DNA from: an uncultured virus (IMG/VR IMGVR_UViG_3300043464_001377) | Taxonomy: Duplodnaviria > Heunggongvirae > Uroviricota > Caudoviricetes | Direction: 5' to 3' (one strand) | Length of the DNA: 33,916 nucleotides | Virus record (IMG/VR): IMGVR_UViG_3300043464_001377 | Shown here: positions 7,264 to 33,916 of the stretch, piece after piece | How the letters are laid out: each line of letters opens with the position of its first letter | How positions within the stretch are numbered: position 1 is the first letter of the stretch | Made by a program: the position numbers and the translations under genes | Notes under the pieces: generated by a model | Told to the model about the DNA's origin: nothing | The model's input: only the letters and a program-made list of their open reading frames with translations | Databases searched by the model: none

Positions 7264-9792
7264 ATGGCGACGGTAGAGCGAGCAATCGGCGGGGCTGGCA
7301 CTGGGAAGACGAGGCTGATCCTCGATCGGCTCTCCCAGGCCAAGCGGGAACTGGGCCTGGGCGTCCACGAGATCGGCTTCTGCACCTTCACGAGGGCAGG
7401 CAGGGCCGAGATCGCTGGGCGGGCTGCCGCTGAGTGGAACGTCGACGTGGACGCCCTTACGAGCCACGGCTGGTTCCGGACGGCCCACGCGATCGCCTAC
7501 CGTCAGGTCAGCGTGGCCGACGGGCAACTCATCCAGGGCCGCGACGGCGACCAGTTCGTCTCGGACTCCGTCGGGGGCGTGATCAGCACGAGGATCGACG
7601 GTCGCGGCGAGCGGCAGTACATCTCAGGCGAGGGCGACGACAAGTCGATCCCGCTCTCGCTGAAGGCCTGGGAACTGGCTCGCAGCAAGATGACCAGCGT
7701 CCAGTCGATCCTGGCACGGTGGGACTTGTGCGGCGAGGAAACGCCGACACTCGCCGACGCCCGTCGCACGATCGAGAAGTACGAGAACGCCAAGAAGGCC
7801 CACGACCGTCTCGATTTCACGGACGTGATTTCCAGGTTCGCGGGCGTCCGCTACACGGTGGACGGGCCGTACCGGGTCGAGCCCGAGGGCGACGTGCCCG
7901 AGGGGCTTCGTGTCCTGGCGATCGACGAGGCCCAGGACTCGTCGACCCTCGTCGATCTCGTCTGCAAGCGGCTCGCCGCGAGTCCGACGATCGAGCGAAT
8001 CTGGCTGTGTGGCGACCCGTACCAATGCCAGCCAGCCGGAACGCCTGTCCTGACGTTGTCTGGATACAAGAATATCGAAGACCTCGACCCGTCGACGGAC
8101 AAACTCGTCTCGTTCAGCCGCAGGGAAGGCAGGTTCTACGGTGCGAATGGCTTCGAGATCGCAAACCGCGAAGTTGACTCTTCTAGTCTGATCGAAATCA
8201 CGCTCGCCGACGGTACGAAGCACGTCTCCACGGACAGCCACAAATGGGTCGTCAGGACTCGCGGAAAGAAAAATGCGTTCGCAACGTACCTCATGTCTCG
8301 CGACGGCCGCTGGAGAGTCGGGACCGTCCAGATGTTTGCCGGAAAGACTTCCGACAGGAACGGATCGTTCAGGCTCAAGATGCGTATGAATCAAGAGGAC
8401 GCTAAACGCGCGTGGATTCTTGGCGTCTTCGAGACAGACCGCGAGGCCAGATGCTACGAGCAGATCGTCTCGTGTAAGTACGGCATACCGCAGGTCACGT
8501 TTCGTCCAGTCTCAGGAGGCAGGAGCAATCTCGACAAGGGATACATAGAGGCAGTGTTCGAGTCGCTTGGAGACTTGACTGCCAGCGGCTGTAGGTGTCT
8601 GAGAGACCACGGCCTCGACGCTGAATCTCCTCTTTGCGAGAAGGCCGACCGTTGCAAGAACGGGCATCATGCGAGCAGGCTCGTTCACGCATCGAACTTG
8701 CTGCCTGGAATCCACTACGTTCCGAAGATGACCGACCCCGGCCGGGGAATCACAGCAAGGCGGTGCGAGTGGGTTGAGGTCGTGGCGTGCAGGAGGCTTC
8801 CCGCTGGCGAGAAAGTCCGAGTCTGGAGCATGAATGTTCACAAGCATCACACGTACGTGACAACAAGCGGTGTTGTCACAGGCAACTCGATCCACAGTTT
8901 TGCCGGGGGCGACTACACGCACTTCATGTCCTGGGAGGCGACCGAGTCGACCATGCAACGGTCCTACCGCTGCCCACGGCAAGTCCTGGCCCTGGGCGAG
9001 GCCTGCCTGCGGCAGATGACGAAGGGATACCGGGACCGTCAAATCCAGCACGCCGGGCACGACGGCTCCGTGAGCCGCGTCGGCAGTGCCGAGGAGGCCC
9101 TGTCTCGCCTGTCGGCCAACACGTCGGCCCTCATCCTGGGACGCTGTGCCTACTCGCTCGAAGAGTACGAGGCGATCCTCCAGGCCAAAGGCATGCCGTA
9201 CCTGTGGATCGACAAGACCTCCGGCTCTTCTACGTTGTCTGGATACGCGGCCCTGTGGGGACTCCAGCACGGACAAACGATCTCGGGCGACGACTGGGCG
9301 AACGCCGTCCAGGCGATCGCTGTGAAGAGCGGCGAGCATGGCGAACTGCTCACTCGCGGCACCAAGACGGCATGGAAGAGCGGCAAGATGTCGCACGTCG
9401 ATCTGATTCGTCCAACGACAGACGACTACGAACTGATCGGCGTCACGCCGTCGCTGGCAACGCTGATCTCGCAGGGCCGCTGGCATCTGGCGATCGAGCC
9501 CAAGTCAGCCGATCGGGCGAGGATTTGGCTGGACACGGCAACTCGCTACGGCGAGGAGGTCGCTACGAACCCGCCTATCCGGCTGTCGACGATTCACGGC
9601 GCCAAAGGCCTGGAGGCCGACACGGTGATCCTGTCGTCGATCACGAGCCCGAGCGTCGAGCGGTCTCGCAACGCCCTGGCTGACTTGCACGACGAGGAGT
9701 GCCGCGTGGCCTACGTGGCGGTCACGAGGGCCAAGAAGGATTTCATGTTCGTCGACGACGGATACCGCTACCGCATGGATTTGCCGCTATGA
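7264..9792 (+). CDS. UvrD/Rep-like superfamily 1 helicase, intein-containing
   Basis: GGAGTGKT, CTFTRA, FRTAHA, IDEAQD, GDPYQ/SIHSF, SYRCP, LSTIHGAKGLE, YVAVTRAK. Confidence 0.93.
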   Translation: MATVERAIGGAGTGKTRLILDRLSQAKRELGLGVHEIGFCTFTRAGRAEIAGRAAAEWNVDVDALTSHGWFRTAHAIAYRQVSVADGQLIQGRDGDQFVSDSVGGVISTRIDGRGERQYISGEGDDKSIPLSLKAWELARSKMTSVQSILARWDLCGEETPTLADARRTIEKYENAKKAHDRLDFTDVISRFAGVRYTVDGPYRVEPEGDVPEGLRVLAIDEAQDSSTLVDLVCKRLAASPTIERIWLCGDPYQCQPAGTPVLTLSGYKNIEDLDPSTDKLVSFSRREGRFYGANGFEIANREVDSSSLIEITLADGTKHVSTDSHKWVVRTRGKKNAFATYLMSRDGRWRVGTVQMFAGKTSDRNGSFRLKMRMNQEDAKRAWILGVFETDREARCYEQIVSCKYGIPQVTFRPVSGGRSNLDKGYIEAVFESLGDLTASGCRCLRDHGLDAESPLCEKADRCKNGHHASRLVHASNLLPGIHYVPKMTDPGRGITARRCEWVEVVACRRLPAGEKVRVWSMNVHKHHTYVTTSGVVTGNSIHSFAGGDYTHFMSWEATESTMQRSYRCPRQVLALGEACLRQMTKGYRDRQIQHAGHDGSVSRVGSAEEALSRLSANTSALILGRCAYSLEEYEAILQAKGMPYLWIDKTSGSSTLSGYAALWGLQHGQTISGDDWANAVQAIAVKSGEHGELLTRGTKTAWKSGKMSHVDLIRPTTDDYELIGVTPSLATLISQGRWHLAIEPKSADRARIWLDTATRYGEEVATNPPIRLSTIHGAKGLEADTVILSSITSPSVERSRNALADLHDEECRVAYVAVTRAKKDFMFVDDGYRYRMDLPL
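8026..8886 (+). mobile_element. Intein (287 aa) in helicase motif III
   Basis: Splits GDPYQ|SIHSF; starts CQPAGTPVLT; block B TDSHKW; ends HTYVTTSGVVTGN followed by Ser. Confidence 0.92.
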
Positions 9793-12739: not shown

Positions 12740-13684
12740 ATGATGCACGACATCATTCACGGCGACGCAACGGACGTCCTCTGCGGCATGGATGCCCAGA
12801 GCGTCCATTGCGTTGTCACGAGCCCGCCGTACTACGCCCAGCGGTCGTACCTGGGCGAGACGGACCCGCTCAAGCCGCAGGAGATCGGCCTCAAAGGCGG
12901 CGAGTACATCGCGGACCTCGTGGCCGTGTTCCACGAGGTCAAGCGGGTGCTTCGCGACGACGGCACGCTGTGGCTGAATCTCGGCGACGTCTACGAGAAC
13001 GGCGAACTGCTCGGCCTGCCGTGGATGGTCGCCCGTTTGCTCCAGTCGGACGGCTGGATGCTTCGCCAGGACATCGTGTGGGCCAAGCCGAGCCCGATGC
13101 CCGAGAGCGTCTCTGACCGCTGCACACGGGCCCACGAGTACGTGTTCATGTTCACCAAGTCTCGCGACTACTTCTACGACGCCGAGGCGATCAAAGAAGA
13201 GTCTGGCTCGTCGCCGACGGGCAAGAACCGCCGCAGCGTCTGGCGGATCGCGTCGACGCCGTACGCCGGGGCCCACTTCGCCACGATGCCGACGACCCTG
13301 GCGGAACTGTGCATCCAGGCTGGCACGAGCGAGTACGGTGCCTGCTCGTCCTGCGGGACTCCGTACGAGCGGCAGATCGAGAAGCGGAAGATCACTCGCA
13401 AGCGGCCAAACCAGTACGTGAAGCGAACGGGCTCGAAGGGCACGGGCAACTCGTGCGCCAACACGGTGGCTGGCGTCGAGACCAAGACCATCGGCTGGAG
13501 CCCTGACTGCTCGTGCGTGGCGTGGGTCCAGCCGTGCGTCGTGCTTGATCCGTTCGCCGGAAGCGGCACGACGCTGGCCGTGGCTAAGGAACTTGGCCGC
13601 AGCGGTGTGGGCATCGAACTCAACGCTGAGTACGTGGAGTTGGCGAGGAAGAGGGTAGCCCAGACTTCCGAGAGGATGCCATGA
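12740..13684 (+). CDS. Second DNA methyltransferase, N4-C/N6-A, beta class
   Basis: TSPPYY, LRQDIVWAKP.PMPESV.DRCT, DPFAGSGTT; paralog of 11063. Confidence 0.93.
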   Translation: MMHDIIHGDATDVLCGMDAQSVHCVVTSPPYYAQRSYLGETDPLKPQEIGLKGGEYIADLVAVFHEVKRVLRDDGTLWLNLGDVYENGELLGLPWMVARLLQSDGWMLRQDIVWAKPSPMPESVSDRCTRAHEYVFMFTKSRDYFYDAEAIKEESGSSPTGKNRRSVWRIASTPYAGAHFATMPTTLAELCIQAGTSEYGACSSCGTPYERQIEKRKITRKRPNQYVKRTGSKGTGNSCANTVAGVETKTIGWSPDCSCVAWVQPCVVLDPFAGSGTTLAVAKELGRSGVGIELNAEYVELARKRVAQTSERMP

Positions 13685-16432: not shown

Positions 16433-16861
16433 ATGGACACGAGAACCGCGATCTTCATCATCCTGACCATGCTCGCCGCGTCGGCCGCCGCCGCCGAGCC
16501 GACCCCGGCCGACGGGACATGCAGCGTCCTCACTGCTGGCGAGGCGCAGGTCGTCGAGAAGACTAACGAAGCACGCATCGAGAGCGGGGTGCATGAACTC
16601 GTCGTCGACTGCCGCCTCATGTCGTCGGCACGTCGGCACGCACGACGGATGGCTCGCGAAATGGCGCTGCGGCACAGCAGCGACCGCGTCGCCGAGAACG
16701 TCGCCGCCGGTCAGCCGACGGCGGCTGATGCCGTTGTGGTCTGGCTCGCGTCGCCAGGGCACCGCGCAAACATTCTGAACCATGGCTACCGACGTGTCGG
16801 CGTGGCCGGGTTCATCGGACCTGACGGACGAGCGTACTGGGTGCAGCAGTTCGCTCCGTGA
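16433..16861 (+). CDS. Secreted CAP/SCP domain protein
   Basis: Signal peptide; N.AR, ARRHA..MA...H, AENVAAG, WLASPGHRANIL, YWVQQF. Confidence 0.9.
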   Translation: MDTRTAIFIILTMLAASAAAAEPTPADGTCSVLTAGEAQVVEKTNEARIESGVHELVVDCRLMSSARRHARRMAREMALRHSSDRVAENVAAGQPTAADAVVVWLASPGHRANILNHGYRRVGVAGFIGPDGRAYWVQQFAP

Positions 16862-27218: not shown

Positions 27219-28304
27219 ATGCCAGTCTTCGTCTCGCCCGGCCAGATTTCCGCTTCCGTCTCCGGCAACTCGATCACGGCGAGCGTGTCTGGCGGCAGCG
27301 GCGTGGCTGTGTCCCAGTCCGCAAGCCAGCCCGTGTCGTTTCCGCAGGGAATCCAGACGCCAGCCCCCGTCCAGAGCGTCAACGGCCAGATCGGCAACGT
27401 CGTCATTCCTGTGGCAACCTGGGTGCCTCATAAGCCACCAGGCGTCGCCTGGCTGTCAAGCGTGCTGGACTCTGGCTCGTTCTCTCTTTCGGCTCGCTCG
27501 TCGACAGGGTATGCGGCCGTGCAGTGGTGGGACGGATCGGTGCAGGCGTACGGCGCGGGATCGCCAGGGCAATACATCGCTGCTTCAAAGGCTGTCCTAG
27601 CGTCGGGCTATTGGGCCAAGTCGACCATCAAGCAAGTATTCGTCTGGTCTTGTGCATCTGCCGCGAACGCATCGCAGTCTGGCTCACTTACGGGGCTCTC
27701 CTGCTCTTCAAAGAAAGTCTTTGCTCTCTCGATCGACGGCTGCTCGTCGCTGCTCGAAGTCTCGTGTGACTCGAATCAACTCACGAGCCTGAACCTCACT
27801 GGCTGCACGGCACTCCAGACGATCTCGTGCCACCTAAATAGCCTGACGAGCCTCGACGTCAGCGACGCCACGCCCCTCACGAGCCTGTACTGCCAGGGCA
27901 ACTCCCTGCGAGGCCTGGACGTGACGAGAAACACAGCCCTGCAAGTCCTGTCATGCAGCACAAATCTCCTCGCGGCCCTTGACCTCTCGCAGAACTCGGC
28001 CCTGGTTGGCCTGTACTGCTTTGGCAACCAACTAACAACGCTAGACATTCGCAACAAGCCTGCCCTGCGAGACGTGATCGCATCGAGCAACTCCATTTCG
28101 CTCGTGCGGGCAGCGGGAGTCGCCGCGTCTGGCGTGGCGGGCATGAACGTCGCGTCAAATCAACTCAACGCCGCGTCTCTGAACTCGCTATACACCGACC
28201 TCGCGTCAGTCCAGTCAGGCGTGATCTATGTCTCGGGCAACCCCGGCGTGGCTGGAGACAATCCGGCGATCGCCACCGCGAAGGGATACACGGTCAATGG
28301 CTGA
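27219..28304 (+). CDS. Leucine-rich-repeat virion-associated protein
   Basis: About 6 tandem 21-aa LxxLxCxxNxLTxLD(V/L) repeats; VQSVNGQIGNV tail-fibre-like motif. Confidence 0.8.
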   Translation: MPVFVSPGQISASVSGNSITASVSGGSGVAVSQSASQPVSFPQGIQTPAPVQSVNGQIGNVVIPVATWVPHKPPGVAWLSSVLDSGSFSLSARSSTGYAAVQWWDGSVQAYGAGSPGQYIAASKAVLASGYWAKSTIKQVFVWSCASAANASQSGSLTGLSCSSKKVFALSIDGCSSLLEVSCDSNQLTSLNLTGCTALQTISCHLNSLTSLDVSDATPLTSLYCQGNSLRGLDVTRNTALQVLSCSTNLLAALDLSQNSALVGLYCFGNQLTTLDIRNKPALRDVIASSNSISLVRAAGVAASGVAGMNVASNQLNAASLNSLYTDLASVQSGVIYVSGNPGVAGDNPAIATAKGYTVNG

Positions 28305-28833
28305 CTTCTATCGCACCGTGGGCAAGCACAGCGTCCTGACGTCAGTGCCGGAACTGGCCGGGCAACTCGGGAACAATTTAGAGCCGAGCCCAAGCGGCCT
28401 GCCGGTGGCTGTATTCGGCGAGGGGCACCGAGACCTGGGCTCGCTGGCCGTGGGCACGGCTGTCTTTTGGTGGCCCAACCACGCCCAGGAACTGTCTTCG
28501 CTGCTGGGCCTAGACTTGCAGCCCTCAAGTCTTCCGCAAGTCCCTGGCGTCCTGCCTGGATTCATCGTCGACGAGGCTGACTTTGCAGTGCCCCAGACCA
28601 TCACGGCCACGCAGATTCGCCTCTGGCTTTTCAGAAATGGCGTGAGCCTGGAGGCTGTCCAGAGTGCGATCGACGCCATCCCAGACGAGGCGGCTCGCGG
28701 CGAGACTCGCATCCAGTGGGAGTATGCGCCCTACGTAGAGCGGAGCCATCCATTCATCAACGCCCTCGGCCAGAGTCTTGGGCTGACCAGCGAGCAGATC
28801 GACCAGGCGTTCGTCGAGGCTGCTCGACTGTAG
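28297..28833 (+). CDS. Tail-fibre-associated protein
   Basis: ITATQIRLWL, WEYA.YVER.HP, LGLTSEQIDQAF motifs typical of genes next to tail fibres. Confidence 0.6.
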   Translation: MADFYRTVGKHSVLTSVPELAGQLGNNLEPSPSGLPVAVFGEGHRDLGSLAVGTAVFWWPNHAQELSSLLGLDLQPSSLPQVPGVLPGFIVDEADFAVPQTITATQIRLWLFRNGVSLEAVQSAIDAIPDEAARGETRIQWEYAPYVERSHPFINALGQSLGLTSEQIDQAFVEAARL

Positions 28834-28881: not shown

Positions 28882-29355
28882 ATGAGCAACTGGATTCCCA
28901 CCGGCGAGCGACTTCCAGTCGAGACTGGCTGGGTGCTGGTCACCGTCGAGACTGACGGGCGTCGCGAAGTTGGCATCGCCAGGGCGATCAACAAGCAGAT
29001 CGGCCTCGACTCGCCAGACATGGCCCCGCGTGTCACGCACTGGATGCCGCTGCCGGAGCCCGCGAAAAACTGCGTGGCTGGATTGGTCTTGTGCGTCGCC
29101 GTGCTGGTCGGGTGCGCCGCGCCGAATCCCGCAGCCTTCAAGTCCTACACCGTGACGGTCACGAGGCCGGATGGCGTTGTCCACCGGACTCTGCAAATCC
29201 AAAGCACAGAACATCCAAGAGTCGAGTCGTTCGACGACGAAGGCGGGTGCCTGCGGGTGCTGTACTGGAATGGTTCCTTCGATCGCTACAGCACGCAGCC
29301 ATTTCCGTCGGGGTGGCTCGTCGAGGTCGAGCCGAACGCGGAGGCGAGCAGATGA
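28882..29355 (+). CDS. DUF551-domain protein fused to a lipoprotein-like segment
   Basis: WIPTGERLP...VTHWMPLPEP followed by LVLCVAVLVGC. Confidence 0.65.
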   Translation: MSNWIPTGERLPVETGWVLVTVETDGRREVGIARAINKQIGLDSPDMAPRVTHWMPLPEPAKNCVAGLVLCVAVLVGCAAPNPAAFKSYTVTVTRPDGVVHRTLQIQSTEHPRVESFDDEGGCLRVLYWNGSFDRYSTQPFPSGWLVEVEPNAEASR

Positions 29356-29543: not shown

Positions 29544-29837
29544 ATGCACGTCATCGACAAAGCAGCCTATGAAGGCGACATCGTCTCTCGGCTCAGGAAC
29601 TGGCGAGGGCTGCACCTCGCTCACAGCGGGGAGTTGTTCGAGGAGGCGGCCGACGAAATTGAAAAGATTCGCGCCTACAGAGACGAAGCCGAGGATGCGG
29701 CGTCGATAGCGAACCTGGCGGCACTCAGCCTGCGGCTGACCGACGATGAGTGGGGGGCGATTGCATACTATGTCGGCACTGGCGGGCCTCGTGGTGTAGA
29801 CGCCACGCTCCGCTCACTGCTGGAGCGAACGAAATGA
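29544..29837 (+). CDS. Small phage protein (DIV.RLR/EAADEIE motif) with LTxxE...LLERT tail
   Basis: GDIVSRLR, EAADEIE, RLTDDEW...TLRSLLERTK. Confidence 0.65.
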   Translation: MHVIDKAAYEGDIVSRLRNWRGLHLAHSGELFEEAADEIEKIRAYRDEAEDAASIANLAALSLRLTDDEWGAIAYYVGTGGPRGVDATLRSLLERTK

Positions 29838-30013
29838 GCCTGGACAAGGCTATCGAACACGGCAAGGAGAAACGGAAGGGCTATCACAAATCCGCCGCCG
29901 TTGACCGCACATGCCGACCCGGAGGCACATGCCCGTATTGCTCTAGGGGCAGGCGGCACAAGAACAAAAAGCGAGCGGCAGCGGCGAAGGACAAGGAGAG
30001 TGACTGTGGCTGA
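29834..30013 (+). CDS. Small basic Cys-containing phage protein
   Basis: MSLDKAIEHGKEKRK..DRTCRPGGTCPYC. Confidence 0.6.
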   Translation: MSLDKAIEHGKEKRKGYHKSAAVDRTCRPGGTCPYCSRGRRHKNKKRAAAAKDKESDCG

Positions 30014-30236
30014 AGAACAGAATCCGGTGGCGTGGGCGGCGGTCGCCAAGAATGACGCCGCCGACTGGCTGCGGCACGCGATCGCCGCCGACCGCATCAG
30101 GATCGCGCAACTGGAGTCAGAGATCGAGCGCCTGCGGCTCACCTTCGAGGAGCGGCAGGCGATGATGCGCGCGATGTATCGGGTTGTTGGCGCCGACTCC
30201 GAAATACTCTGGTCGCTGCTGGAGCGGACGAGGTGA
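30006..30236 (+). CDS. Small phage protein (PVAW motif, LTxEER tail)
   Basis: AAGGAG SD before GTG; stop codon lies in the attC core TGAGAAC. Confidence 0.65.
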   Translation: MAEEQNPVAWAAVAKNDAADWLRHAIAADRIRIAQLESEIERLRLTFEERQAMMRAMYRVVGADSEILWSLLERTR

Positions 30237-30323
30237 GAACGACAAGGATCAGGAGCGGCGAGACATGAACACTGACAACACGCAGGACGGTGCCGAGCCG
30301 TCTCCTGCATCCGCTGGTTCTGC
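30234..30323 (-). other. attC site A (type 1, 90 bp)
   Basis: Minus strand: AGAAC-CAGCG-GATGCAGG...CCTGATC-CTTGTC-GTTCTCA. Confidence 0.85.
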
Positions 30324-30552
30324 CACGCTCACTGTGGACGACGTTGCGTTGCTCTACGACGAATGGAAGCGGCGATACTGCGGCCCGCGAGACATGGTGA
30401 TTCTGGTGCGGAGGCCAATGTGGAAACGAGTGCTTTCCGTCCCGTGGATGTGGTGGTCGCACTTCGGACTGGCTTGCCAATACACGGGCATTTTTCAATC
30501 CGCAAGGCTGGCAACGCTCTTCGTCTGGGCGTTCCTTACGGCTCGCAAGTAG
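30265..30552 (+). CDS. Cassette protein starting inside attC A
   Basis: AGGAG-9 nt-ATG within the attC; N-terminus MNTDNTQDGAEPSPASAGS; hydrophobic C-terminus. Confidence 0.6.
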   Translation: MNTDNTQDGAEPSPASAGSATLTVDDVALLYDEWKRRYCGPRDMVILVRRPMWKRVLSVPWMWWSHFGLACQYTGIFQSARLATLFVWAFLTARK

Positions 30553-30554
30553 TG

Positions 30555-30644
30555 GTAGAACGCCAGCGATCAGCGGCCCGCGACCTATGACCATGAACAA
30601 ACCAACCGACGATCTCGCGGGTCCGCTGCATCGCGTGGTTCTCA
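30555..30644 (-). other. attC site B (type 2, 90 bp)
   Basis: + strand AAC-GCCAG-CGATCAGCGGCCCGCGA...TCGCGGG(T)CCGCTG(C)ATCG-CGTG-GTT. Confidence 0.85.
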
Positions 30645-30805
30645 CTGGTCGGCAGCGAGAGGCAATCATGTATTGCATCGCGTGTGCGCAGGACTTCCGA
30701 GACACTATTGATTCGTTTGAACCTGACGGCGATTTGGCGCGACAAAAGGCCACTGAGAACATTGACATTGCCATAAGGCTCGTTTGGCCGCTCGTTGGCC
30801 CTTAG
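30587..30805 (+). CDS. Cassette protein starting inside attC B
   Basis: ATG in the attC loop; LTGRQREAI motif. Confidence 0.55.
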   Translation: MTMNKPTDDLAGPLHRVVLTGRQREAIMYCIACAQDFRDTIDSFEPDGDLARQKATENIDIAIRLVWPLVGP

Positions 30806-30821
30806 CAGACGAAGGACGAAA

Positions 30822-30974
30822 ATGAACAGAGAACCGATGTGGCTGTCAGTTCTGGTGTTTCCCATGAGAGCGGCCTTCGTAGTTATGGGGCTGTCGATGG
30901 TGGCGGCATTTTTAGTCGCGCCTTGGGTCTTGATTGCTTGGGCCGCAGGCTGTTGGTGCGGATGGTGTAAGTGA
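30822..30974 (+). CDS. 50-aa hydrophobic membrane peptide
   Basis: AAGGA SD; MNREPMWLSVLVF...WCGWCK; stop in the TGAGAAC core. Confidence 0.55.
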   Translation: MNREPMWLSVLVFPMRAAFVVMGLSMVAAFLVAPWVLIAWAAGCWCGWCK

Positions 30975-31006
30975 GAACCAGTGTTTCTCAACGTAAAGGA
31001 GTTTGC

Positions 31007-31588
31007 ATGACGACTTTTGGGTTTTTCCTGTCTGCGGCCACGCTGGCTCTTGGGCTGCTTCTTGGCTACATCGTTTTTGGGATGAGACCGAAGCCTGCGC
31101 AAGATGACTACGCTGATTGTTTGATTCACCCCGAGACAACGCCGCAGGTCAAGTGGGTGAAAATGACGCGGCCTACGAGGGACGCGATCATCGACATCTA
31201 CGCGGCCAACATGGACGAGTGCAAGAAGTTCATGGAGGCAAACGACCGCGTTACGACTGGCGAGGCGGCGATACTGTGGCTCATGGAAAAGGCGAAGCGA
31301 CAACACCGGCGATCAGCGGCCCGCGACCGCTGCATCGCGTGGTTCTCAAAAGCAAAGGAGACAGGCATGAGTGATCTTGTGCCGCCGATGATGCCTGACG
31401 ATCTGGATGCGCTCATCCAGGCGATGGAGCGAGTGCAGCAGTTAGAGGCGGAGGTGGAAAAGTTGCGGCTCACCGGCGAGGAGCGGGAGGCGATTGCGTG
31501 GTTTTCGGTCTACTCCGACACGCCAGGAGAGGAGCGGCACGCGGCCGTGCTGGAGACACTGATTGCACGGTTGGATTGTGACCGATGA
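31007..31588 (+). CDS. Fused ORF reading through attC C; second start at 31367
   Basis: AAAGGAG SD before both ATG 31007 and in-frame ATG 31367. Confidence 0.55.
   Translation: MTTFGFFLSAATLALGLLLGYIVFGMRPKPAQDDYADCLIHPETTPQVKWVKMTRPTRDAIIDIYAANMDECKKFMEANDRVTTGEAAILWLMEKAKRQHRRSAARDRCIAWFSKAKETGMSDLVPPMMPDDLDALIQAMERVQQLEAEVEKLRLTGEEREAIAWFSVYSDTPGEERHAAVLETLIARLDCDR
31298..31348 (-). other. attC site C (short type 2, 51 bp)
   Basis: AAC-ACCGG-CGATCAGCGG-CCCGCGA-CCGCTG(C)ATCG-CGTG-GTTCTCA. Confidence 0.75.
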
Positions 31589-31659
31589 TCAGCGATAACC
31601 GCGAAAATAGGCGGCGATCATCACTGACCACAGAGAGCAGCCCGAGAAAGGACGTTGAT

Positions 31660-31896
31660 ATGACACAGAACGAACTGGCCGAACGGCTGCGAGACATGAG
31701 CGACGCGCTCAACATTTGCGGTGCCGATTACAGTGACGTTTTGCTGGACGCGGCGAGAGAACTGGACCGCAGGAGTTGGATTCCGCAGCCCACGCTCACC
31801 GACGAGGAGCGGGAGGCGTTGCGCGGGATGCTTCCGACGATCATGTACGAACCGCACAGGAAGGCGATTGAGTCGATACTGGCACGGCTTGGTTGA
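31660..31896 (+). CDS. Cassette protein with PTLTDEERE tail
   Basis: AAAGGA SD; LAERLR..DAAREL; stop in the attC D core. Confidence 0.65.
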   Translation: MTQNELAERLRDMSDALNICGADYSDVLLDAARELDRRSWIPQPTLTDEEREALRGMLPTIMYEPHRKAIESILARLG

Positions 31897-31983
31897 GAAC
31901 ACGCAGGATCAGGAGCGGCGAACAATGAGCGATGACAACACGCAGGACGGTGCCGAGCCGTCTCCTGCATCGGCTGGTTCTCA
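31894..31983 (-). other. attC site D (type 1, 90 bp)
   Basis: Near-identical to A and H; encodes 20-aa peptide MSDDNTQDGAEPSPASAGSH (31925-31987). Confidence 0.85.
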
Positions 31984-32005
31984 CTGACAGAAACAAGGAG
32001 TTGAA

Positions 32006-32221
32006 ATGCCGAAGTGCATCATCGGTCCCAATGGAGTGGCTCACGGCCCAATGTGCAAGGACGGTCGCTTGTGCGGTTTTCGCGGAAACCAACTAGAGAG
32101 CGACCGCAAGTCGCAGCCCACGCTCACCGACGAGGAGCGGCAGGTGATATTTCGCGCGATGTATCGGGCTGCCGGCGCCGACTCCGCAATACTCTGGTCG
32201 CTGCTGGAGCGGACGAGGTGA
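32006..32221 (+). CDS. Cassette protein with PTLTDEER tail
   Basis: AAGGAG SD; stop in the attC E core. Confidence 0.65.
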   Translation: MPKCIIGPNGVAHGPMCKDGRLCGFRGNQLESDRKSQPTLTDEERQVIFRAMYRAAGADSAILWSLLERTR

Positions 32222-32308
32222 GAACGACAAGGATCAGGAGCGGCGAACAATGAACACTGACAACACGCGGGGCGCGGCCGAGCCGTCTCTTGCATCCGCT
32301 GGTTATGC
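32219..32308 (-). other. attC site E (type 1, 90 bp)
   Basis: AAC-GACAA-GGATCAGGAG-CGGC...GCCG(T)CTCTTG(C)ATCC-GCTG-GTTATGC. Confidence 0.85.
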
Positions 32309-32609
32309 GGTTGGCGATGTGATGGCGTTTCAGTGCGGGTTGCGTGGCGAATCATGGGAACTGCACAAAATCACCCGCATTACCGAGAAGGGGCTGATGA
32401 CTTGTGGCCCGTACCAGATAGACGCGCACCTGCGAGTCAGGGGGCGAACGGGCTATTCCGGGCCGATTTGCAGAGGCAGGCCGACGCCTAAAATCATGGC
32501 AGAAGTTCAGCGGCAAAGGGCTATTGCCATTATCAAGGCGACGAACTGGAGCAGCGTGCCGCTGGACAACCTTTTGGGTGTGATAGCGGTGCTGGAACAA
32601 GACGCATAA
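32250..32609 (+). CDS. Cassette protein starting inside attC E
   Basis: N-terminus MNTDNTRGAAEPSLASAG; stop TAA in the attC F core. Confidence 0.65.
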   Translation: MNTDNTRGAAEPSLASAGYAVGDVMAFQCGLRGESWELHKITRITEKGLMTCGPYQIDAHLRVRGRTGYSGPICRGRPTPKIMAEVQRQRAIAIIKATNWSSVPLDNLLGVIAVLEQDA

Positions 32610-32692
32610 CGCCAGCGATCAGCGGCATCGAACACAGGAGCAACCATGACAAACGATGTAGATGAGATGTCTGCTGCATCGCGTGGTTCTCG
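32604..32692 (-). other. attC site F (type 2, 89 bp)
   Basis: AAC-GCCAG-CGATCAGCGGCATC...GATG(T)CTGCTG(C)ATCG-CGTG-GTT; AGGAG and ATG in the loop. Confidence 0.85.
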
Positions 32693-32894
32693 CATGGTCG
32701 GCTCCGCTCCCGTCGAACGCCTTGGTGCCACCAAGGTCACTGACGTAGGCGAGTCGGGGCTGGCTTTGGCGAGCGAGGAAAGGAATGCCATCGTCGAAGT
32801 GCTTGAATGTTGGCGGCGATCTTCCGCGATACAGCAGCAACTGCCAGAGTGGAGCGTTGTTTCGCTTTGCTCACTGCTGTGGAGGACGAGGTGA
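32646..32894 (+). CDS. Cassette protein starting inside attC F
   Basis: CAGGAG SD; LASEERNAI...SLLWRTR tail. Confidence 0.6.
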   Translation: MTNDVDEMSAASRGSRMVGSAPVERLGATKVTDVGESGLALASEERNAIVEVLECWRRSSAIQQQLPEWSVVSLCSLLWRTR

Positions 32895-32904
32895 CCGAGG
32901 GGAG

Positions 32905-32953
32905 CGAGAACGCCAGCGATCAGCGGCTCGTCCGCTGCATCGCGTGGTTATGG
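32905..32953 (-). other. attC site G (minimal type 2, 49 bp)
   Basis: AAC-GCCAG-CGATCAGCGG-CTCGT-CCGCTG(C)ATCG-CGTG-GTT. Confidence 0.8.
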
Positions 32954-32981
32954 CCGGGCGAGGACAACATGAGGACGCGAG

Positions 32982-33185
32982 ATGCGATGGAAGATGATCG
33001 ACAGGCCAGCCGACGGGAACGAGGTGAGCCAGTGGTTCGCGTTCTGGCCCGTCACTGTCAAAGGCGAAACCCGGTGGCTGGAATGGGTGGCTGTGGAGTA
33101 TCGAATCGTCATCGCGGGTTACTCCGACGCTCTGAAAGTGAGGCCCGGCAAGATTCACAAGCACGCGGTGCGGTTCATTTCATAG
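32982..33185 (+). CDS. Cassette protein (WFAFWPV...RWLEWV)
   Basis: Fills cassette G; aromatic motif seen in small phage proteins. Confidence 0.6.
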   Translation: MRWKMIDRPADGNEVSQWFAFWPVTVKGETRWLEWVAVEYRIVIAGYSDALKVRPGKIHKHAVRFIS

Positions 33186-33275
33186 CCATAACACGCAGGA
33201 TCAGGAGCGGCGAACAATGAGCGATGACAACACGCAGGACGGTGCCGAGCCGTCTCCTGCATCCGCTGGTTCTCG
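33186..33275 (-). other. attC site H (type 1, 90 bp)
   Basis: Body near-identical to D. Confidence 0.85.
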
Positions 33276-33549
33276 CGGGGAGCCAGTCGCGTGGGGCGTC
33301 TTCTACGGTGATGGGAAACTTCACTCATCATGGGACTCGCACGCAAAGGCCGAATGCACGGCGGTGACGATGCGACGGTTCGACCATCTCGGCGTCTATG
33401 TTTCGCCGCTCTACCGCTCGCCCACGCTCACCGACGAGGAGCGGGCGGCCATTGCCGAAGCGGCCGGAGCCTACAACGACAACGATGACGATGAGGAGTG
33501 TGCGAAGATCGCGGCCACGCTTCACAGCCTACTGAAGCGGCTAGGTTGA
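33217..33549 (+). CDS. Cassette protein starting inside attC H (EPVAW...PLY, PTLTDEER tail)
   Basis: MSDDNTQDGAEPSPASAGS N-terminus; stop in the attC I core. Confidence 0.7.
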   Translation: MSDDNTQDGAEPSPASAGSRGEPVAWGVFYGDGKLHSSWDSHAKAECTAVTMRRFDHLGVYVSPLYRSPTLTDEERAAIAEAAGAYNDNDDDEECAKIAATLHSLLKRLG

Positions 33550-33595
33550 GAACGTCAGCGATCAGCGGCTCGTCCGCTGCATCGCGTGGTTCTGT
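33547..33595 (-). other. attC site I (minimal type 2, 49 bp)
   Basis: Body differs from G by one base. Confidence 0.8.
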
Positions 33596-33627
33596 GGTTT
33601 GTTGGATGACACAACAGGAGGATTGAA

Positions 33628-33903
33628 ATGCTCTACAACGCAATCAAGCGGCGAGACAACCTTATCTCAGGTCTGCGCGACTCGCAGGAGTTTTTTTGCA
33701 ATGCCATGAACAGGCAGCATGGCAGCCTCATCGACTGGATGCGGTGGCAGATTGAGAAGCGCGAGACGCGGCTAGACACTATCGGCCTGATCGCAAAGGC
33801 AGGCGGCGAGCCGTTGACCGCAGACGCCGCTAGGACGGCTGGCGAGGTGGCGGCATTCCACGCCGTGCTGGCGTACATCAACAACGGTTGGAAGGCAGAG
33901 TAG
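33628..33903 (+). CDS. Cassette protein, hypothetical
   Basis: AGGAGG SD; fills cassette I. Confidence 0.65.
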   Translation: MLYNAIKRRDNLISGLRDSQEFFCNAMNRQHGSLIDWMRWQIEKRETRLDTIGLIAKAGGEPLTADAARTAGEVAAFHAVLAYINNGWKAE

Positions 33904-33905
33904 TC

Positions 33906-33916
33906 ACAGAACACGC
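33906..33916 (-). other. attC site J, truncated by window end
   Basis: ACAGAAC-ACGC matches the start of D and H; core complements GTTCTGTG at 33589. Confidence 0.65.

What the first reader, a model, noticed from the sequence alone, without database searches (positions are those of the whole stretch)
30234..33916. Phage-borne integron-type cassette array of attC sites with no integrase in view
Seen: nine imperfect palindromes of two sequence types separate small ORFs. On the minus strand each reads core-AAC, 5-nt spacer, 8-nt L box (GATGCAGG/C), variable loop, 7-nt L box (C/GCTGATC), 6-nt spacer, GTT-core, with unpaired bases in the stem. Established: this is the R''-L''-L'-R' geometry of integron attC sites, which are normally described on bacterial chromosomes, plasmids and transposons. 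Inference: the phage keeps its accessory genes as mobile cassettes, shuffled by a host IntI in trans or by an integrase beyond 33916. The cargo is phage-type (EPVAW, LAERLR motifs), so this looks like phage genes packaged as cassettes rather than a captured bacterial array. I cannot check the literature for precedent.
Basis: partly seen in the sequence, partly recalled or inferred. Interest (0 to 1): 0.93.

Follow-up and report, generated by a model that had tools for sequence, protein, structure and literature searches.

The report
Integron-type gene cassette array in phage
A freshwater phage keeps a row of small accessory genes as integron-style mobile cassettes, separated by hairpin recombination sites of the same family that sits beside an integron integrase in a Pirellulales (planctomycete) bacterial genome, and related phages carry the same cassettes in other orders.

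Summary
Nine co-oriented imperfect palindromes lie at 30238-33591, and a tenth starts at 33910. They occur nowhere else in the window.

They meet the structural definition of integron attC sites:
- AAC/GTT cores.
- The same 6/5-nt spacer and 7/8-nt L boxes as the aadA1 attC of plasmid R100.
- Two bulged bases opposite the AAC.
- A variable loop.

A covariance model built only from phage sites finds the aadA1 attC as its single significant hit in 50 kb of R100. It also finds equally good sites beside a true integron integrase in a Pirellulales chromosome.

The eight bases after each GTT are the reverse complement of the eight ending in the next AAC. This is the mark of cassettes that pass through a circle. 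Related phage contigs hold identical cassettes in other orders, with junctions at the AAC.

No integron integrase is in the window or in a 99%-complete relative, so this is a CALIN, probably served by a host IntI (inferred).

The genes lie on the attC bottom strand, opposite to bacterial cassettes. Phage CALINs are already published (Qi et al. 2023).

Earlier notes of this scan describe integron-like arrays on other DNA. None of the eight shown was described as phage DNA.

The parts
30238..30319 (+). attC-type site 1, type A, long loop. The loop holds an RBS and the ATG (30265) of the cassette ORF.
   Evidence: 58.2 bits. Identical in the nearest virus record G001.
30559..30640 (+). attC-type site 2, type B, long loop with ATG 30587. 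The window and its nearest relative G001 diverge right after its AAC.
   Evidence: 64.5 bits; DNA fold: R box, internal loop, 3 bp, bulge, 6 bp, bulge, stem.
31302..31344 (+). attC-type site 3, type B, short loop. The upstream ORF (31007-) reads through it without a stop.
   Evidence: 59.0 bits.
31898..31979 (+). attC-type site 4, type A, long loop. Its loop ORF (31925-31987) stops after 20 codons.
   Evidence: 61.9 bits.
32223..32304 (+). attC-type site 5, type A, long loop with ATG 32250. The right L box is the variant CTTGCATC.
   Evidence: (54.2 bits).
32608..32688 (+). attC-type site 6, type B, long loop with ATG 32646. It is the left edge of the four-cassette block shared at about 100% with contig L188.
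   Evidence: (63.0 bits).
32909..32949 (+). attC-type site 7, type B, short loop.
   Evidence: (67.3 bits).
33190..33271 (+). attC-type site 8, type A, long loop with ATG 33217.
   Evidence: 56.3 bits.
33551..33591 (+). attC-type site 9, type B, short loop.
   Evidence: 66.7 bits.
33910..33916 (+). Start of site 10 (AACACGC), cut by the window end. The sister contig L188 has another site type after the same AAC.
30265..30552 (+). Cassette 1 ORF, 95 aa. It starts in the loop of site 1.
30587..31300 (+). Cassette 2, holding three ORFs: 30587-30805, 30822-30974 and 31007 onwards. At 30970-30977 stands GTGAGAAC, the perfect reverse complement of the GTTCTCAC after site 2. It may be the remnant of a lost site.
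   Evidence: The remnant was read by eye.
31367..31896 (+). Cassette 3, with ORFs 31367-31588 and 31660-31896.
32006..32221 (+). Cassette 4 ORF, 71 aa. Its C-terminal part is 90% identical in DNA to the end of the ORF upstream of site 1.
   Evidence: repeat D2.
32250..32609 (+). Cassette 5 ORF, 119 aa.
32646..32894 (+). Cassette 6 ORF, 82 aa.
   Evidence: 100% identical in L188.
32982..33185 (+). Cassette 7 ORF, 67 aa. A 79%-identical cassette lies between other site types in L052.
33217..33549 (+). Cassette 8 ORF, 110 aa.
33628..33903 (+). Cassette 9 ORF, 91 aa.
29544..30236 (+). Three small ORFs upstream of site 1. They carry the same protein motifs as cassette ORFs (LRLTxEE..., ...LLERT[KR] ends) but have no sites between them. 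They may be former cassettes that lost their sites (inference).
   Evidence: (repeat families D4-D6).

Best explanation
The stretch is an integron-type gene-cassette array without an integrase of its own, a CALIN, inside the accessory region of a roughly 97-kb freshwater phage.

Each site is an attC-type recombination site. Its + strand is the bottom (recombinogenic) strand. As single-stranded DNA it folds into an R box (AAC/GTT), an unpaired 6/5-nt spacer and an L box (GATCAGS/SCTG-C-ATC). Two bases are extruded on the arm opposite the AAC, C at position 16 and T at position 23. A variable terminal stem-loop of about 5 to 50 nt closes the hairpin.

A tyrosine recombinase of the integron-integrase type cuts between A and C of the left-arm AAC. 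A cassette therefore runs from that C, through the site and the gene body, to the next ...AA. It can leave as a circle and re-enter at another site. That is why the 8 nt after each GTT pair with the 8 nt ending in the next AAC.

Shown here:
- the structure of the sites;
- their kinship to bona fide attC sites;
- the end complementarity of the cassettes;
- cassette rearrangements between related phage contigs, with junctions at the AAC;
- the absence of intI from the window and from a near-complete relative.

Inferred: the enzyme is an IntI supplied in trans by the host. The host is probably a Pirellulales-type planctomycete, because one such chromosome has the same site family next to its intI. 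Rarely the IntI may be phage-borne.

Unlike bacterial cassettes, the genes are encoded on the bottom strand, co-directional with phage transcription. In most long sites the loop carries the RBS, the start codon and the first 19 or so codons of the gene.
For: STRUCTURE
- There are 9 of 9 sites with the same geometry.
- In an alignment of 44 family sites, AAC, GTT and the L-box cores are invariant. 89.7% of cells pair, against 80.5% in shuffles (0 of 500 shuffles reach it). Compensatory changes occur at L-box pairs 21-73, 22-72 and 23-70 and in the extended stem.
- The aadA1 attC of R100, read from the record, has AAC-5-8...7-6-GTT on the coding strand. The window has the mirror image on its + strand.
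- DNA folds of window 30554-30645(+) and of the aadA1 bottom strand both give R box, internal loop, 3 bp, bulge, 6 bp, bulge, stem.
- Across 250 family sites, position 16 is C in 243 and position 23 is T in 241.
- Nivina et al. 2016 (PMC5027507, passages read) define the bottom strand by extrahelical bases opposite the AAC, with position 16 usually G and position 23/24 described as conserved. The listed passage breaks off before naming that base, but the same paper's mutant names (T20, T24) show extrahelical T's.

KINSHIP
- Model R1, built from phage sites only, has one significant hit in 50 kb of R100 on both strands. It is the aadA1 attC at 13474-13535, bottom strand, 24.4 bits, E 1.6e-4; the next best hit scores 10.9 bits.
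- In a Pirellulales MAG chromosome (L156) two R1 sites of 54.8 and 55.6 bits lie 1.8 kb upstream of an integron integrase (TIGR02249 406.5 bits, cut-off 265). The layout matches intI1/aadA1 in R100.
- A Betaproteobacteria MAG contig (L155) has four weaker R1 sites (21-42 bits) beside its IntI (481 bits).
- 10 of 13 bacterial genomes holding R1-positive loci have an IntI over the cut-off, against 0 of 14 control genomes.

CASSETTE SIGNATURE
- In 156 distinct cassettes, the outer 5 nt of the two ends are perfectly complementary in 97 and match 4 of 5 in 44 more. Shuffled partners give a mean of 15.4 and a maximum of 34 in 10,000 trials. The two arms of one site match perfectly in only 23 of 250.
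- In the window, 5 of 8 consecutive pairs match 8/8, one 7/8 and two 6/8.

MOBILITY
- The window and G001 are 97-100% identical up to the AAC(G) of site 2 and unrelated after it.
- L188 equals the window from the CATAAC of site 6 to the AAC of site 10, with other neighbours on both sides.
- L190 and L196 share three 100%-identical cassettes in the orders B2-B3-B4 and B4-B2-B3. Identity of the moved 430-nt unit ends within 6 nt of its two AAC triplets.
- In 16 pairs of bodies at least 91% identical, the upstream site travels with the body in 10.

NO INTEGRASE
- No PF00589 match in G001.
- No TIGR02249 match in 5 of 5 near-complete relatives. These include G072, which is 97 kb, 99% complete, has a helicase 92-94% identical to the window's and carries a 13-site array.
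Against: - No recombination was observed directly and no IntI was tested.
- The R boxes are mostly GTTCTCA/TGAGAAC and do not fit the RYYYAAC/GTTRRRY consensus.
- Position 16 is C, not the usual G.
- The short sites (41 nt from AAC to GTT) are shorter than the aadA1 attC (52 nt).
- The genes lie on the bottom strand. In phage arrays, 27 of 144 bottom-sense ORFs have a Pfam family, against 0 of 122 top-sense ORFs from viral loci and the window.
- In 2-3 of the 16 body pairs the downstream site travels with the body instead, and in 4 neither site does. Exchanges at the GTT arm, or conversion between sites, therefore also happen.
- IntegronFinder's own attC model could not be run.
- Several relatives carry a small Xer-like tyrosine recombinase that could be the enzyme instead.
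- The host assignment rests on one IntI-linked chromosome plus MAG labels.
Confidence: 0.8

Rival explanations
1. The arrays are real cassette arrays, but the enzyme is the phage's own small (283-301 aa) Xer-like tyrosine recombinase. It lacks the IntI-specific domain. This would be a phage-autonomous, non-IntI cassette system.
For: - A PF00589 protein is found in 15 of 33 family records (14 over the cut-off) and in 19 of 46, though the two sets overlap.
- Most belong to one family of 283-327 aa with weak XerD/XerA matches.
- Among near-complete records with sites it is present in G072, G054, G021 and G013.
- In G007 it lies about 1 kb from the array.
- Earlier notes of this scan describe attC-like arrays next to short Xer-like recombinases in other organisms (unchecked leads).
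Against: - It is usually 5-45 kb from the array and in no fixed orientation.
- It is absent from G057 (92% complete, 4-site array), and from G056 and G032, which are near complete but hold one site each.
- None of these proteins reaches TIGR02249; the best scores 21 bits against a cut-off of 265.
- The two bulged bases are conserved in 241-243 of 250 sites. That argues for a folded single-strand substrate with extrahelical bases, which is how IntI reads its sites (Nivina 2016).
- The same site family sits beside a true IntI in bacteria.
- Tyrosine integrases are common in phages for lysogeny anyway.
Confidence: 0.12
2. The palindromes are chiefly regulatory hairpins (terminators, RNA processing or translation-control elements, or DNA-level signals) repeated between phage genes. 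Gene order would differ between relatives through ordinary homologous recombination at these conserved repeats.
For: - The + strand is the transcribed strand, so every site is also an mRNA hairpin.
- In 77 of 94 long sites the ORF starts inside the site, so folding could gate translation.
- The window encodes an exonuclease VIII-like protein.
- Some homology breakpoints lie at the GTT arm rather than the AAC.
Against: - Homologous recombination does not explain why the 5-8 nt outside the conserved cores are complementary between the two ends of a gene body and not within a site (97 of 156 against 23 of 250).
- It does not explain identity ending within 3-6 nt of the AAC.
- It does not explain the exact attC spacing and bulge positions.
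- It does not explain the IntI-linked sister sites.
- A regulatory side role is not excluded.
Confidence: 0.05
3. The palindromes are small mobile elements in their own right (MITE/REP-like) that inserted between genes. The genes themselves would not be mobile.
For: The sites are highly similar to each other within and between contigs. Site type and gene body are uncoupled in some pairs.
Against: - Site plus downstream body move together as 100%-identical units.
- The inverted terminal match flanks the gene body, not the palindrome.
- No target-site duplication pattern was seen.
- All sites within an array share one orientation: 9 of 9 in the window, 15 of 15 in L057 and 13 of 13 in L213.
Confidence: 0.02

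Closest known systems
CALINs (clusters of attC sites lacking an integron integrase) in phage genomes, Qi et al. 2023, Front Microbiol (PMC9892861; abstract, section 3.4 and passages read)
   Same: attC sites and gene cassettes lie inside phage genomes without an adjacent intI. DNA methyltransferases are among the cargo. Recombination by a bacterial IntI in trans is proposed, and was shown with IntI1 for 5 of 6 tested phage attC sites.
   Different: - That work reports 17 CALINs in sequenced phages, each with at least two predicted attC sites.
- Here a single homogeneous attC family forms arrays of up to 15 sites in 76 IMG/VR loci examined.
- The cargo is typical phage small genes (DUF551, Mom).
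- Genes lie on the attC bottom strand and start codons lie in the site loops.
- Natural rearrangements between phage genomes are visible.
Sedentary chromosomal integrons. Recalled example: the Vibrio cholerae superintegron. Found here: the Pirellulales MAG locus L156.
   Same: Long arrays carry near-identical attC sites and mostly single small ORFs of unknown function, with paralogous cassettes. The L156 integron has the same attC family (R1 55 bits).
   Different: The chromosomal integron has intI next to the array, and its cassette genes lie on the top strand. In L156 these are DKNYY, DUF2442 and HicA, all on the strand opposite to R1. The phage array has no intI and the opposite coding polarity.
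attC of the aadA1 cassette, class 1 integron In2 on plasmid R100 (NC_002134)
   Same: - AAC and GTT cores.
- 5/6-nt spacers and 8/7-nt L boxes.
- The extra base after the fourth L-box position, then 6 bp, then a second bulge.
- It is found by the phage-derived model in the bottom-strand orientation.
   Different: - The R boxes are TCTAAC/GTTAGA, which fit the consensus.
- The first bulged base is G, not C.
- The gene is on the top strand and ends before the site.
Boundary or linker sequences of mosaic lambdoid phages (recalled, not looked up)
   Same: Short conserved sequences between genes mark where modules are exchanged between phages.
   Different: Those act through homologous recombination. 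They have no folded-site geometry, no end complementarity of modules and no link to a site-specific recombinase.

Membership tests
integron attC site | Conserved 5'-AAC-3' and 5'-GTT-3' triplets in inverted R boxes at the two ends. | tested here: met
   9 of 9 window sites. Invariant in 44 of 44 aligned sites. 250 of 255 family hits have them at the expected place.
integron attC site | R-box consensus RYYYAAC / GTTRRRY (Nivina 2016). | tested here: not met
   The outer bases are mostly CTGTG, CTCAC, CTCAG or CTCGC after GTT. Only a few sites read GTTAGGT or GTTAGCG. Only the AAC/GTT core fits.
integron attC site | L boxes form an imperfect inverted repeat, separated from the R boxes by an unpaired central spacer of unequal length. 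| tested here: met
   The + strand has a 6-nt spacer, 7-nt box ... 8-nt box, 5-nt spacer. This is the mirror of the aadA1 top strand read from R100. Folds leave the spacer as an internal loop.
integron attC site | Extrahelical bases on the arm opposite the AAC of the bottom strand, at positions 16 and 23/24. | tested here: met
   Bulges lie at alignment columns 77 and 69 and appear in the folds. Position 16 is C in 243 of 250 sites and position 23 is T in 241 of 250. The identity at position 16 departs from the usual G.
integron attC site | Variable terminal structure; overall length about 57-141 bp (range recalled). | tested here: inconclusive
   Loops vary from about 5 to 50 nt. There are two length classes, about 41 nt and about 82 nt from AAC to GTT. 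With 7-nt R boxes the short class is about 49 nt, below the recalled lower bound.
integron attC site | Detected by the curated attC covariance model (IntegronFinder / HattCI). | not testable with these tools
   The model is not available, and Rfam gave 0 hits at gathering threshold. Reciprocal test: the phage-derived model R1 finds the aadA1 attC as its only significant hit in 50 kb of R100.
integron attC site | Recombined by an integron integrase as a folded bottom strand. | not testable with these tools
   Indirect only: sister sites of 55 bits lie beside IntI in L156, and weaker ones beside IntI in L155.
integron gene cassette array | Each cassette's two ends (R' and R'') are complementary, so the array site is a hybrid of two cassettes. 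| tested here: met
   97 of 156 cassettes are perfect on the outer 5 nt, against a shuffled mean of 15.4. Own-site arms are perfect in 23 of 250.
integron gene cassette array | Cassettes are mobile units, with crossover between A and C of the bottom-strand AAC. | tested here: met
   Shown by comparison only: window/G001, window/L188 and L190/L196. The upstream site is co-inherited in 10 of 16 pairs.
integron gene cassette array | Genes co-oriented with the attC top strand, with the attC at the 3' end of the gene. | tested here: not met
   ORFs lie on the bottom strand, and the site lies at the 5' end of the gene it travels with.
complete integron | intI with attI and a promoter next to the array. 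| tested here: not met
   - Of 39 window ORFs scanned against PHROGs, none matched a family named as an integrase.
- No PF00589 match in G001.
- No TIGR02249 match in 5 of 5 near-complete relatives.
- Two other viral records, G031 and G048, do hold an IntI-like gene, but 8 kb from their sites and in non-canonical orientation. The G031 protein reaches TIGR02249 at 354.7 bits; the G048 protein was scored with PF00589 only.
integron integrase (TIGR02249), for the Xer-like recombinases of relatives | Score over the curated cut-off of 265 bits, which requires the IntI-specific additional domain. | tested here: not met
   Five Xer-like proteins of 283-327 aa were tested, plus one 368-aa arm-type integrase (L127). 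The Xer-like ones score at best 21 bits. The G031 protein scores 354.7 bits.

The most novel reading that the evidence does not exclude
A clade of freshwater phages, probably of Planctomycetota, runs a cassette pool of its own on the host's integron machinery.

- The cassettes use the same attC family as the host's chromosomal integron but are built in the opposite polarity.
- The recombinogenic bottom strand is the coding strand, and the attC loop supplies the ribosome site and the first codons.
- They are therefore expressed in phage arrays and silent in the bacterial integron, and the reverse holds for bacterial cassettes.
- Phages would thus trade accessory genes, probably including anti-restriction genes, with each other one gene at a time through a host enzyme.
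- That would make IntI a driver of phage mosaicism as well as of bacterial adaptation.
Probability: 0.5. Interest if true: 0.82.

Novelty: new variant of a known kind. Interest (0 to 1): 0.72.

Why it matters
Integrons are known as a bacterial way to capture and shuffle single genes. Phage-borne attC clusters have been reported only as a few short cases.

Here one attC family forms arrays of up to 15 cassettes in dozens of uncultivated phage contigs. Phage-type genes are encoded in reverse polarity, and fresh rearrangements are visible between natural genomes.

If a host IntI does the work, site-specific cassette exchange is a mechanism of phage genome mosaicism. The phage accessory-gene pool becomes experimentally addressable, because cassettes can be amplified from attC to attC as is done for bacterial integrons.

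It also explains why assemblies of these phages break at this place. It gives a host clue (Pirellulales) for a phage group without cultured hosts.

Tried and rejected
- Rfam at gathering threshold over the whole window gave 0 matches. Rfam apparently has no attC family, so this says nothing.
- Pfam and PHROGs on the window's own 14 array ORFs gave nothing at E <= 0.001, and nothing reached a curated Pfam cut-off. Function came only from relatives' cassettes.
- Own-site pairing of the outer R-box bases was my first expectation and was rejected: only about 60% of cells pair and 23 of 250 are perfect.
- The simple rule that the site always belongs to the downstream body was rejected as absolute. 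Of the 16 pairs, 2-3 show the downstream site travelling instead and 4 show neither.
- The search for related loci with the ORF at 28228-28833 gave one contig (L159) that ends at the array start, so it was of no use for order comparison.
- Laying Logan contigs of four lake runs:
  - Contigs stop at the sites.
  - Most joints have sides under 30 nt and cannot be trusted.
  - The summed depth of cassettes (45-638 in X1) against the backbone (about 51) mixes other genomes and repeated motifs.
  - I draw no conclusion from joints or depth.
- DNA comparison of the window's array flank with the array region of the 99%-complete relative G072 found only the sites themselves and one 71% body piece. I do not claim the arrays sit at the same locus.
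- The weak R1 match at 29205-29236 (12.4 bits, E 0.26) was not taken as a site.
- The metagenome-contig scan was not used.
- Searches failed because the window's own assembly is not held.
- Literature searches and passages of PMC13323075 turned up no report of long phage attC arrays, or of bottom-strand-coded cassettes, beyond Qi et al. 2023. Supplementary tables of that paper were not opened and may list array sizes.

Full report
WHAT IS THERE

The window is a phage fragment. It encodes helicases, a primase, an exonuclease VIII-like protein, two DNA methyltransferases, HNH endonucleases and virion/tail proteins, all on the + strand.

From 30238 to 33591 there are nine co-oriented imperfect palindromes. 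On the + strand they read AAC-N6-GATCAG[G/C]-loop-[C/G]CTGCATC-N5-GTT. A tenth begins at 33910.

The left-arm pattern occurs 9 times against 0.17 expected. The right-arm pattern occurs 9 times against 0.28 expected. Neither occurs anywhere else in the window.

Four sites are type A and five are type B. Three have short loops (41-43 nt from AAC to GTT) and six have long loops (81-82 nt).

STRUCTURE

I aligned 44 sites from the window and from relatives.
- AAC, GTT and the L-box cores are invariant.
- The proposed hairpin pairs in 89.7% of cells, against 80.5% in column shuffles and at most 47% when the partner is slid.
- Compensatory changes occur in three L-box pairs and five pairs of the extended stem.
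- Two positions on the 3' arm never have a partner.

For a real reference I read the aadA1 cassette of plasmid R100. Its coding strand reads AAC, 5 nt, 8-nt box, loop, 7-nt box, 6 nt, GTT. The window's + strand is the mirror image, so it corresponds to the attC bottom strand.

Folded as DNA, window site 2 (+) and the aadA1 bottom strand give the same plan: R box, internal loop, 3 bp, bulge, 6 bp, bulge, stem. Counted as in Nivina et al. 2016 (PMC5027507, passages read), the bulges are at positions 16 and 23, opposite the AAC. That paper uses this placement to define the recombinogenic bottom strand. Over 250 family sites, position 16 is C in 243 (the paper says usually G) and position 23 is T in 241.

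IS IT AN attC?

IntegronFinder's model is not available here, and Rfam has nothing. I therefore ran the test in reverse.

A covariance model built from phage sites only (R1) was run with filters off over 50 kb of R100 on both strands. It found one significant match, the aadA1 attC in bottom-strand orientation (24.4 bits, E 1.6e-4; next best 10.9 bits). In the window it finds the nine sites, which were among the 44 it was built from, and nothing else above 18 bits.

A pattern scan of one genome per prokaryotic species gave 20 loci, and R1 confirmed sites in them. Of 13 genomes I followed up, 10 hold an integron integrase over the curated cut-off, against 0 of 14 control genomes.

In two cases the integrase is on the same locus.
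- In a Pirellulales MAG contig (L156), two sites of 54.8 and 55.6 bits lie 1.8 kb upstream of an IntI (TIGR02249 406.5 bits). These scores are as good as the window's own. The locus sits in an ordinary chromosomal neighbourhood with amylase, MiaA, HisG and menaquinone genes. The cassette genes are DKNYY, DUF2442 and HicA.
- In a Betaproteobacteria MAG contig (L155), four weaker sites lie beside an IntI of 481 bits.

In both, and in R100, the R1 orientation is on the strand of intI, which is the canonical layout. The phage sites are therefore members of an attC family that a real integron uses.

CASSETTE SIGNATURE

If cassettes pass through a circular form, the outer R-box bases at the two ends of one cassette must pair, while the two arms of a site in the array come from different cassettes.

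That is what is seen. In the window the 8 nt from each GTT match the reverse complement of the 8 nt ending in the next AAC at 8/8 in five of eight pairs (7/8 in one, 6/8 in two). The two arms of the same site match 4-7/8.

Over 156 distinct cassettes from 80 loci, the outer five bases are perfectly complementary in 97 and match 4/5 in 44. Shuffled partners give a mean of 15.4 and a maximum of 34 in 10,000 trials. Own-site arms are perfect in 23 of 250.

THE FAMILY

Two pattern scans of IMG/VR and R1 give 76 viral loci with sites. Of these, 37 have three or more sites and 12 have five or more. The largest arrays have 15 sites (L057) and 13 (L213). Median spacing is 357 nt. Many contigs end at the array, which shows that assemblies break there.

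MOBILITY

- The nearest virus record (G001, sharing 87% of 31-mers) is 97-100% identical to the window up to ...GGTAGAAC(G) of site 2 and unrelated from there on.
- Contig L188 is identical to the window from the CATAAC of site 6 to the AAC of site 10, which is four cassettes. It has a different cassette on each side.
- Arrays L190 and L196 share three 100%-identical cassettes in the orders B2-B3-B4 and B4-B2-B3. The moved unit is 430 nt, running from the C of one AAC to the next AA, and identity ends within 6 nt of those triplets.
- In 16 pairs of bodies at least 91% identical in differing contexts, the site upstream (in + orientation) is co-inherited in 10. That is what cleavage at AA|C of the bottom strand predicts. 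In 2-3 pairs the downstream site is co-inherited instead, and in 4 neither is. Exchanges at the GTT arm, or conversion among sites, therefore also occur.
- A close relative with a nearly complete genome (G072: 97 kb, 99% complete, helicase 92-94% identical) has a 13-site array with no cassette in common with the window. Only the sites match.

WHICH RECOMBINASE?

- Of 39 window ORFs scanned against PHROGs, none matched a family named as an integrase.
- G001 and the sister contig's record G050 have no PF00589 match.
- L188 shows that the array is followed by a DUF551-like gene, a phosphoesterase, MazG, HNH and the terminase genes.
- No TIGR02249 match exists in 5 of 5 near-complete relatives.
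- Two other viral records hold an IntI-like gene (G031, a complete 39-kb genome, and G048). It lies 8 kb from their sites and in non-canonical orientation. The G031 protein scores 354.7 bits on TIGR02249; the G048 protein was scored with PF00589 only.
- A small Xer-like recombinase family occurs in about 40% of records. It is usually 5-45 kb from the array, is missing from some near-complete genomes with sites, and does not reach the IntI model.

The conserved extrahelical bases argue for an enzyme that reads a folded single strand. I therefore favour a host IntI acting in trans. This step is inferred, not shown.

POLARITY AND CARGO

The ORFs of the array are on the + strand, which is the attC bottom strand.
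- GC by codon position fits the phage's genes.
- 132 of 155 family ORFs end within -12..+3 nt of the next AAC, often with the stop codon inside TGAGAAC or TAGAAC.
- 27 of 144 bottom-sense ORFs have a Pfam family: DUF551 in 20, a C5 DNA methylase at 157 bits and a Mom-family protein at 54.7 bits. Among top-sense ORFs, 0 of 122 from viral loci and the window have one.
- The only top-sense hit (DUF4160+DUF2442) is in a Planctomycetota MAG contig. The three Pfam-positive cassette genes of the L156 integron are also top-sense.

The same site family therefore serves two pools of opposite polarity.

In long sites the loop holds the RBS and start codon (77 of 94, against 13 of 61 short sites). In the window this holds for sites 1, 2, 5, 6 and 8. 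Site 4's loop ORF stops after 20 codons. The ORF from 31007 runs through site 3 without a stop.

The window's own cargo has no recognisable family. Several ORFs share an LTxEEReAI-type motif.

HABITAT

Twenty-four lake or freshwater metagenome runs hold the stretch, 13 of them with half or more of its words. Contigs of four runs cover the cassette bodies at 95-100% identity but stop at the sites.

COMPARISON WITH WHAT IS KNOWN

Phage-borne CALINs are published. Qi et al. 2023 (PMC9892861) found 3 complete integrons, one In0 and 17 CALINs in phage genomes, and showed IntI1 recombination for 5 of 6 phage attC sites. The kind is therefore known.

My searches found no description of the following:
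- the scale, with one homogeneous family across dozens of phage contigs and arrays up to 15 sites;
- the phage-type cargo;
- the bottom-strand coding with translation starts in the attC loop;
- the direct comparative evidence of recent shuffling among natural phage genomes;
- the link to a planctomycete chromosomal integron.

VERDICT

It is best filed as a new variant of a known kind. Confidence is 0.8 that this is an IntI-type cassette array. The identity of the enzyme remains open.

Noticed in passing
window 7264-9792 (+): The UvrD-like helicase (842 aa) matches its orthologues in G072 and G021 only over residues 1-254 and 542-842. Those orthologues lie in open frames of 568-575 aa. The window's gene therefore carries an insert of about 287 aa with no Pfam family. 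It may be an intein or an inserted domain.
   Followed up: partly
window 31007-31588 (+): The last ORF of cassette 2 has no stop before site 3. It reads through the short site in frame into the next cassette's ORF (ATG 31367), giving a possible 193-aa fusion.
   Followed up: no
window 30966-30992: GTGAGAAC-CAGT-GTTTCTC is an R-box-like pair without L boxes inside the three-ORF 'cassette 2'. GTGAGAAC is the exact complement of the GTTCTCAC after site 2. It may be the scar of a collapsed site.
   Followed up: no
window 29544-30236: Three small ORFs just upstream of the array share motifs and DNA repeats with cassette ORFs (families D4-D6; a 187-nt repeat at 30137-30323 / 32122-32308 at 90%). They lack sites between them and may be former cassettes that became fixed.
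   Followed up: partly
L006/L126 (viral record G031, 39.1 kb, terminal repeats, 100% complete) and L184 (G048): Two viral records carry an integrase with a strong PF00589 match in a 374-aa open frame. The G031 protein is a bona fide integron integrase (TIGR02249 354.7 bits); the G048 protein was not run against TIGR02249. Each record also has two R1-type sites about 8 kb away, in non-canonical relative orientation.
   Followed up: partly
L156 7000-11551 (Pirellulales MAG contig): A sedentary chromosomal integron. IntI is on the + strand, and cassettes on the opposite strand encode DKNYY, DUF2442 and HicA. It lies between hisG/miaA and menaquinone genes, and its attC sites belong to the phage family.
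   Followed up: partly
window end, G001 end, L159 end, Logan contigs: Independent assemblies stop at or inside the array. These phage genomes will be systematically fragmented at this locus in short-read metagenomes.
   Followed up: partly
window 27219-28304 (+) and 16433-16861 (+): A leucine-rich-repeat protein sits at the end of the tail module, possibly a receptor-binding protein. A CAP/SCP-domain protein (PF00188, 57.7 bits) is also present. Both are unusual phage genes.
   Followed up: no
family sites, left L box: The invariant left L box contains GATC. The right box does not, because the bulged base interrupts it. The phage encodes two DNA methyltransferases. Whether methylation marks one arm was not examined.
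   Followed up: no
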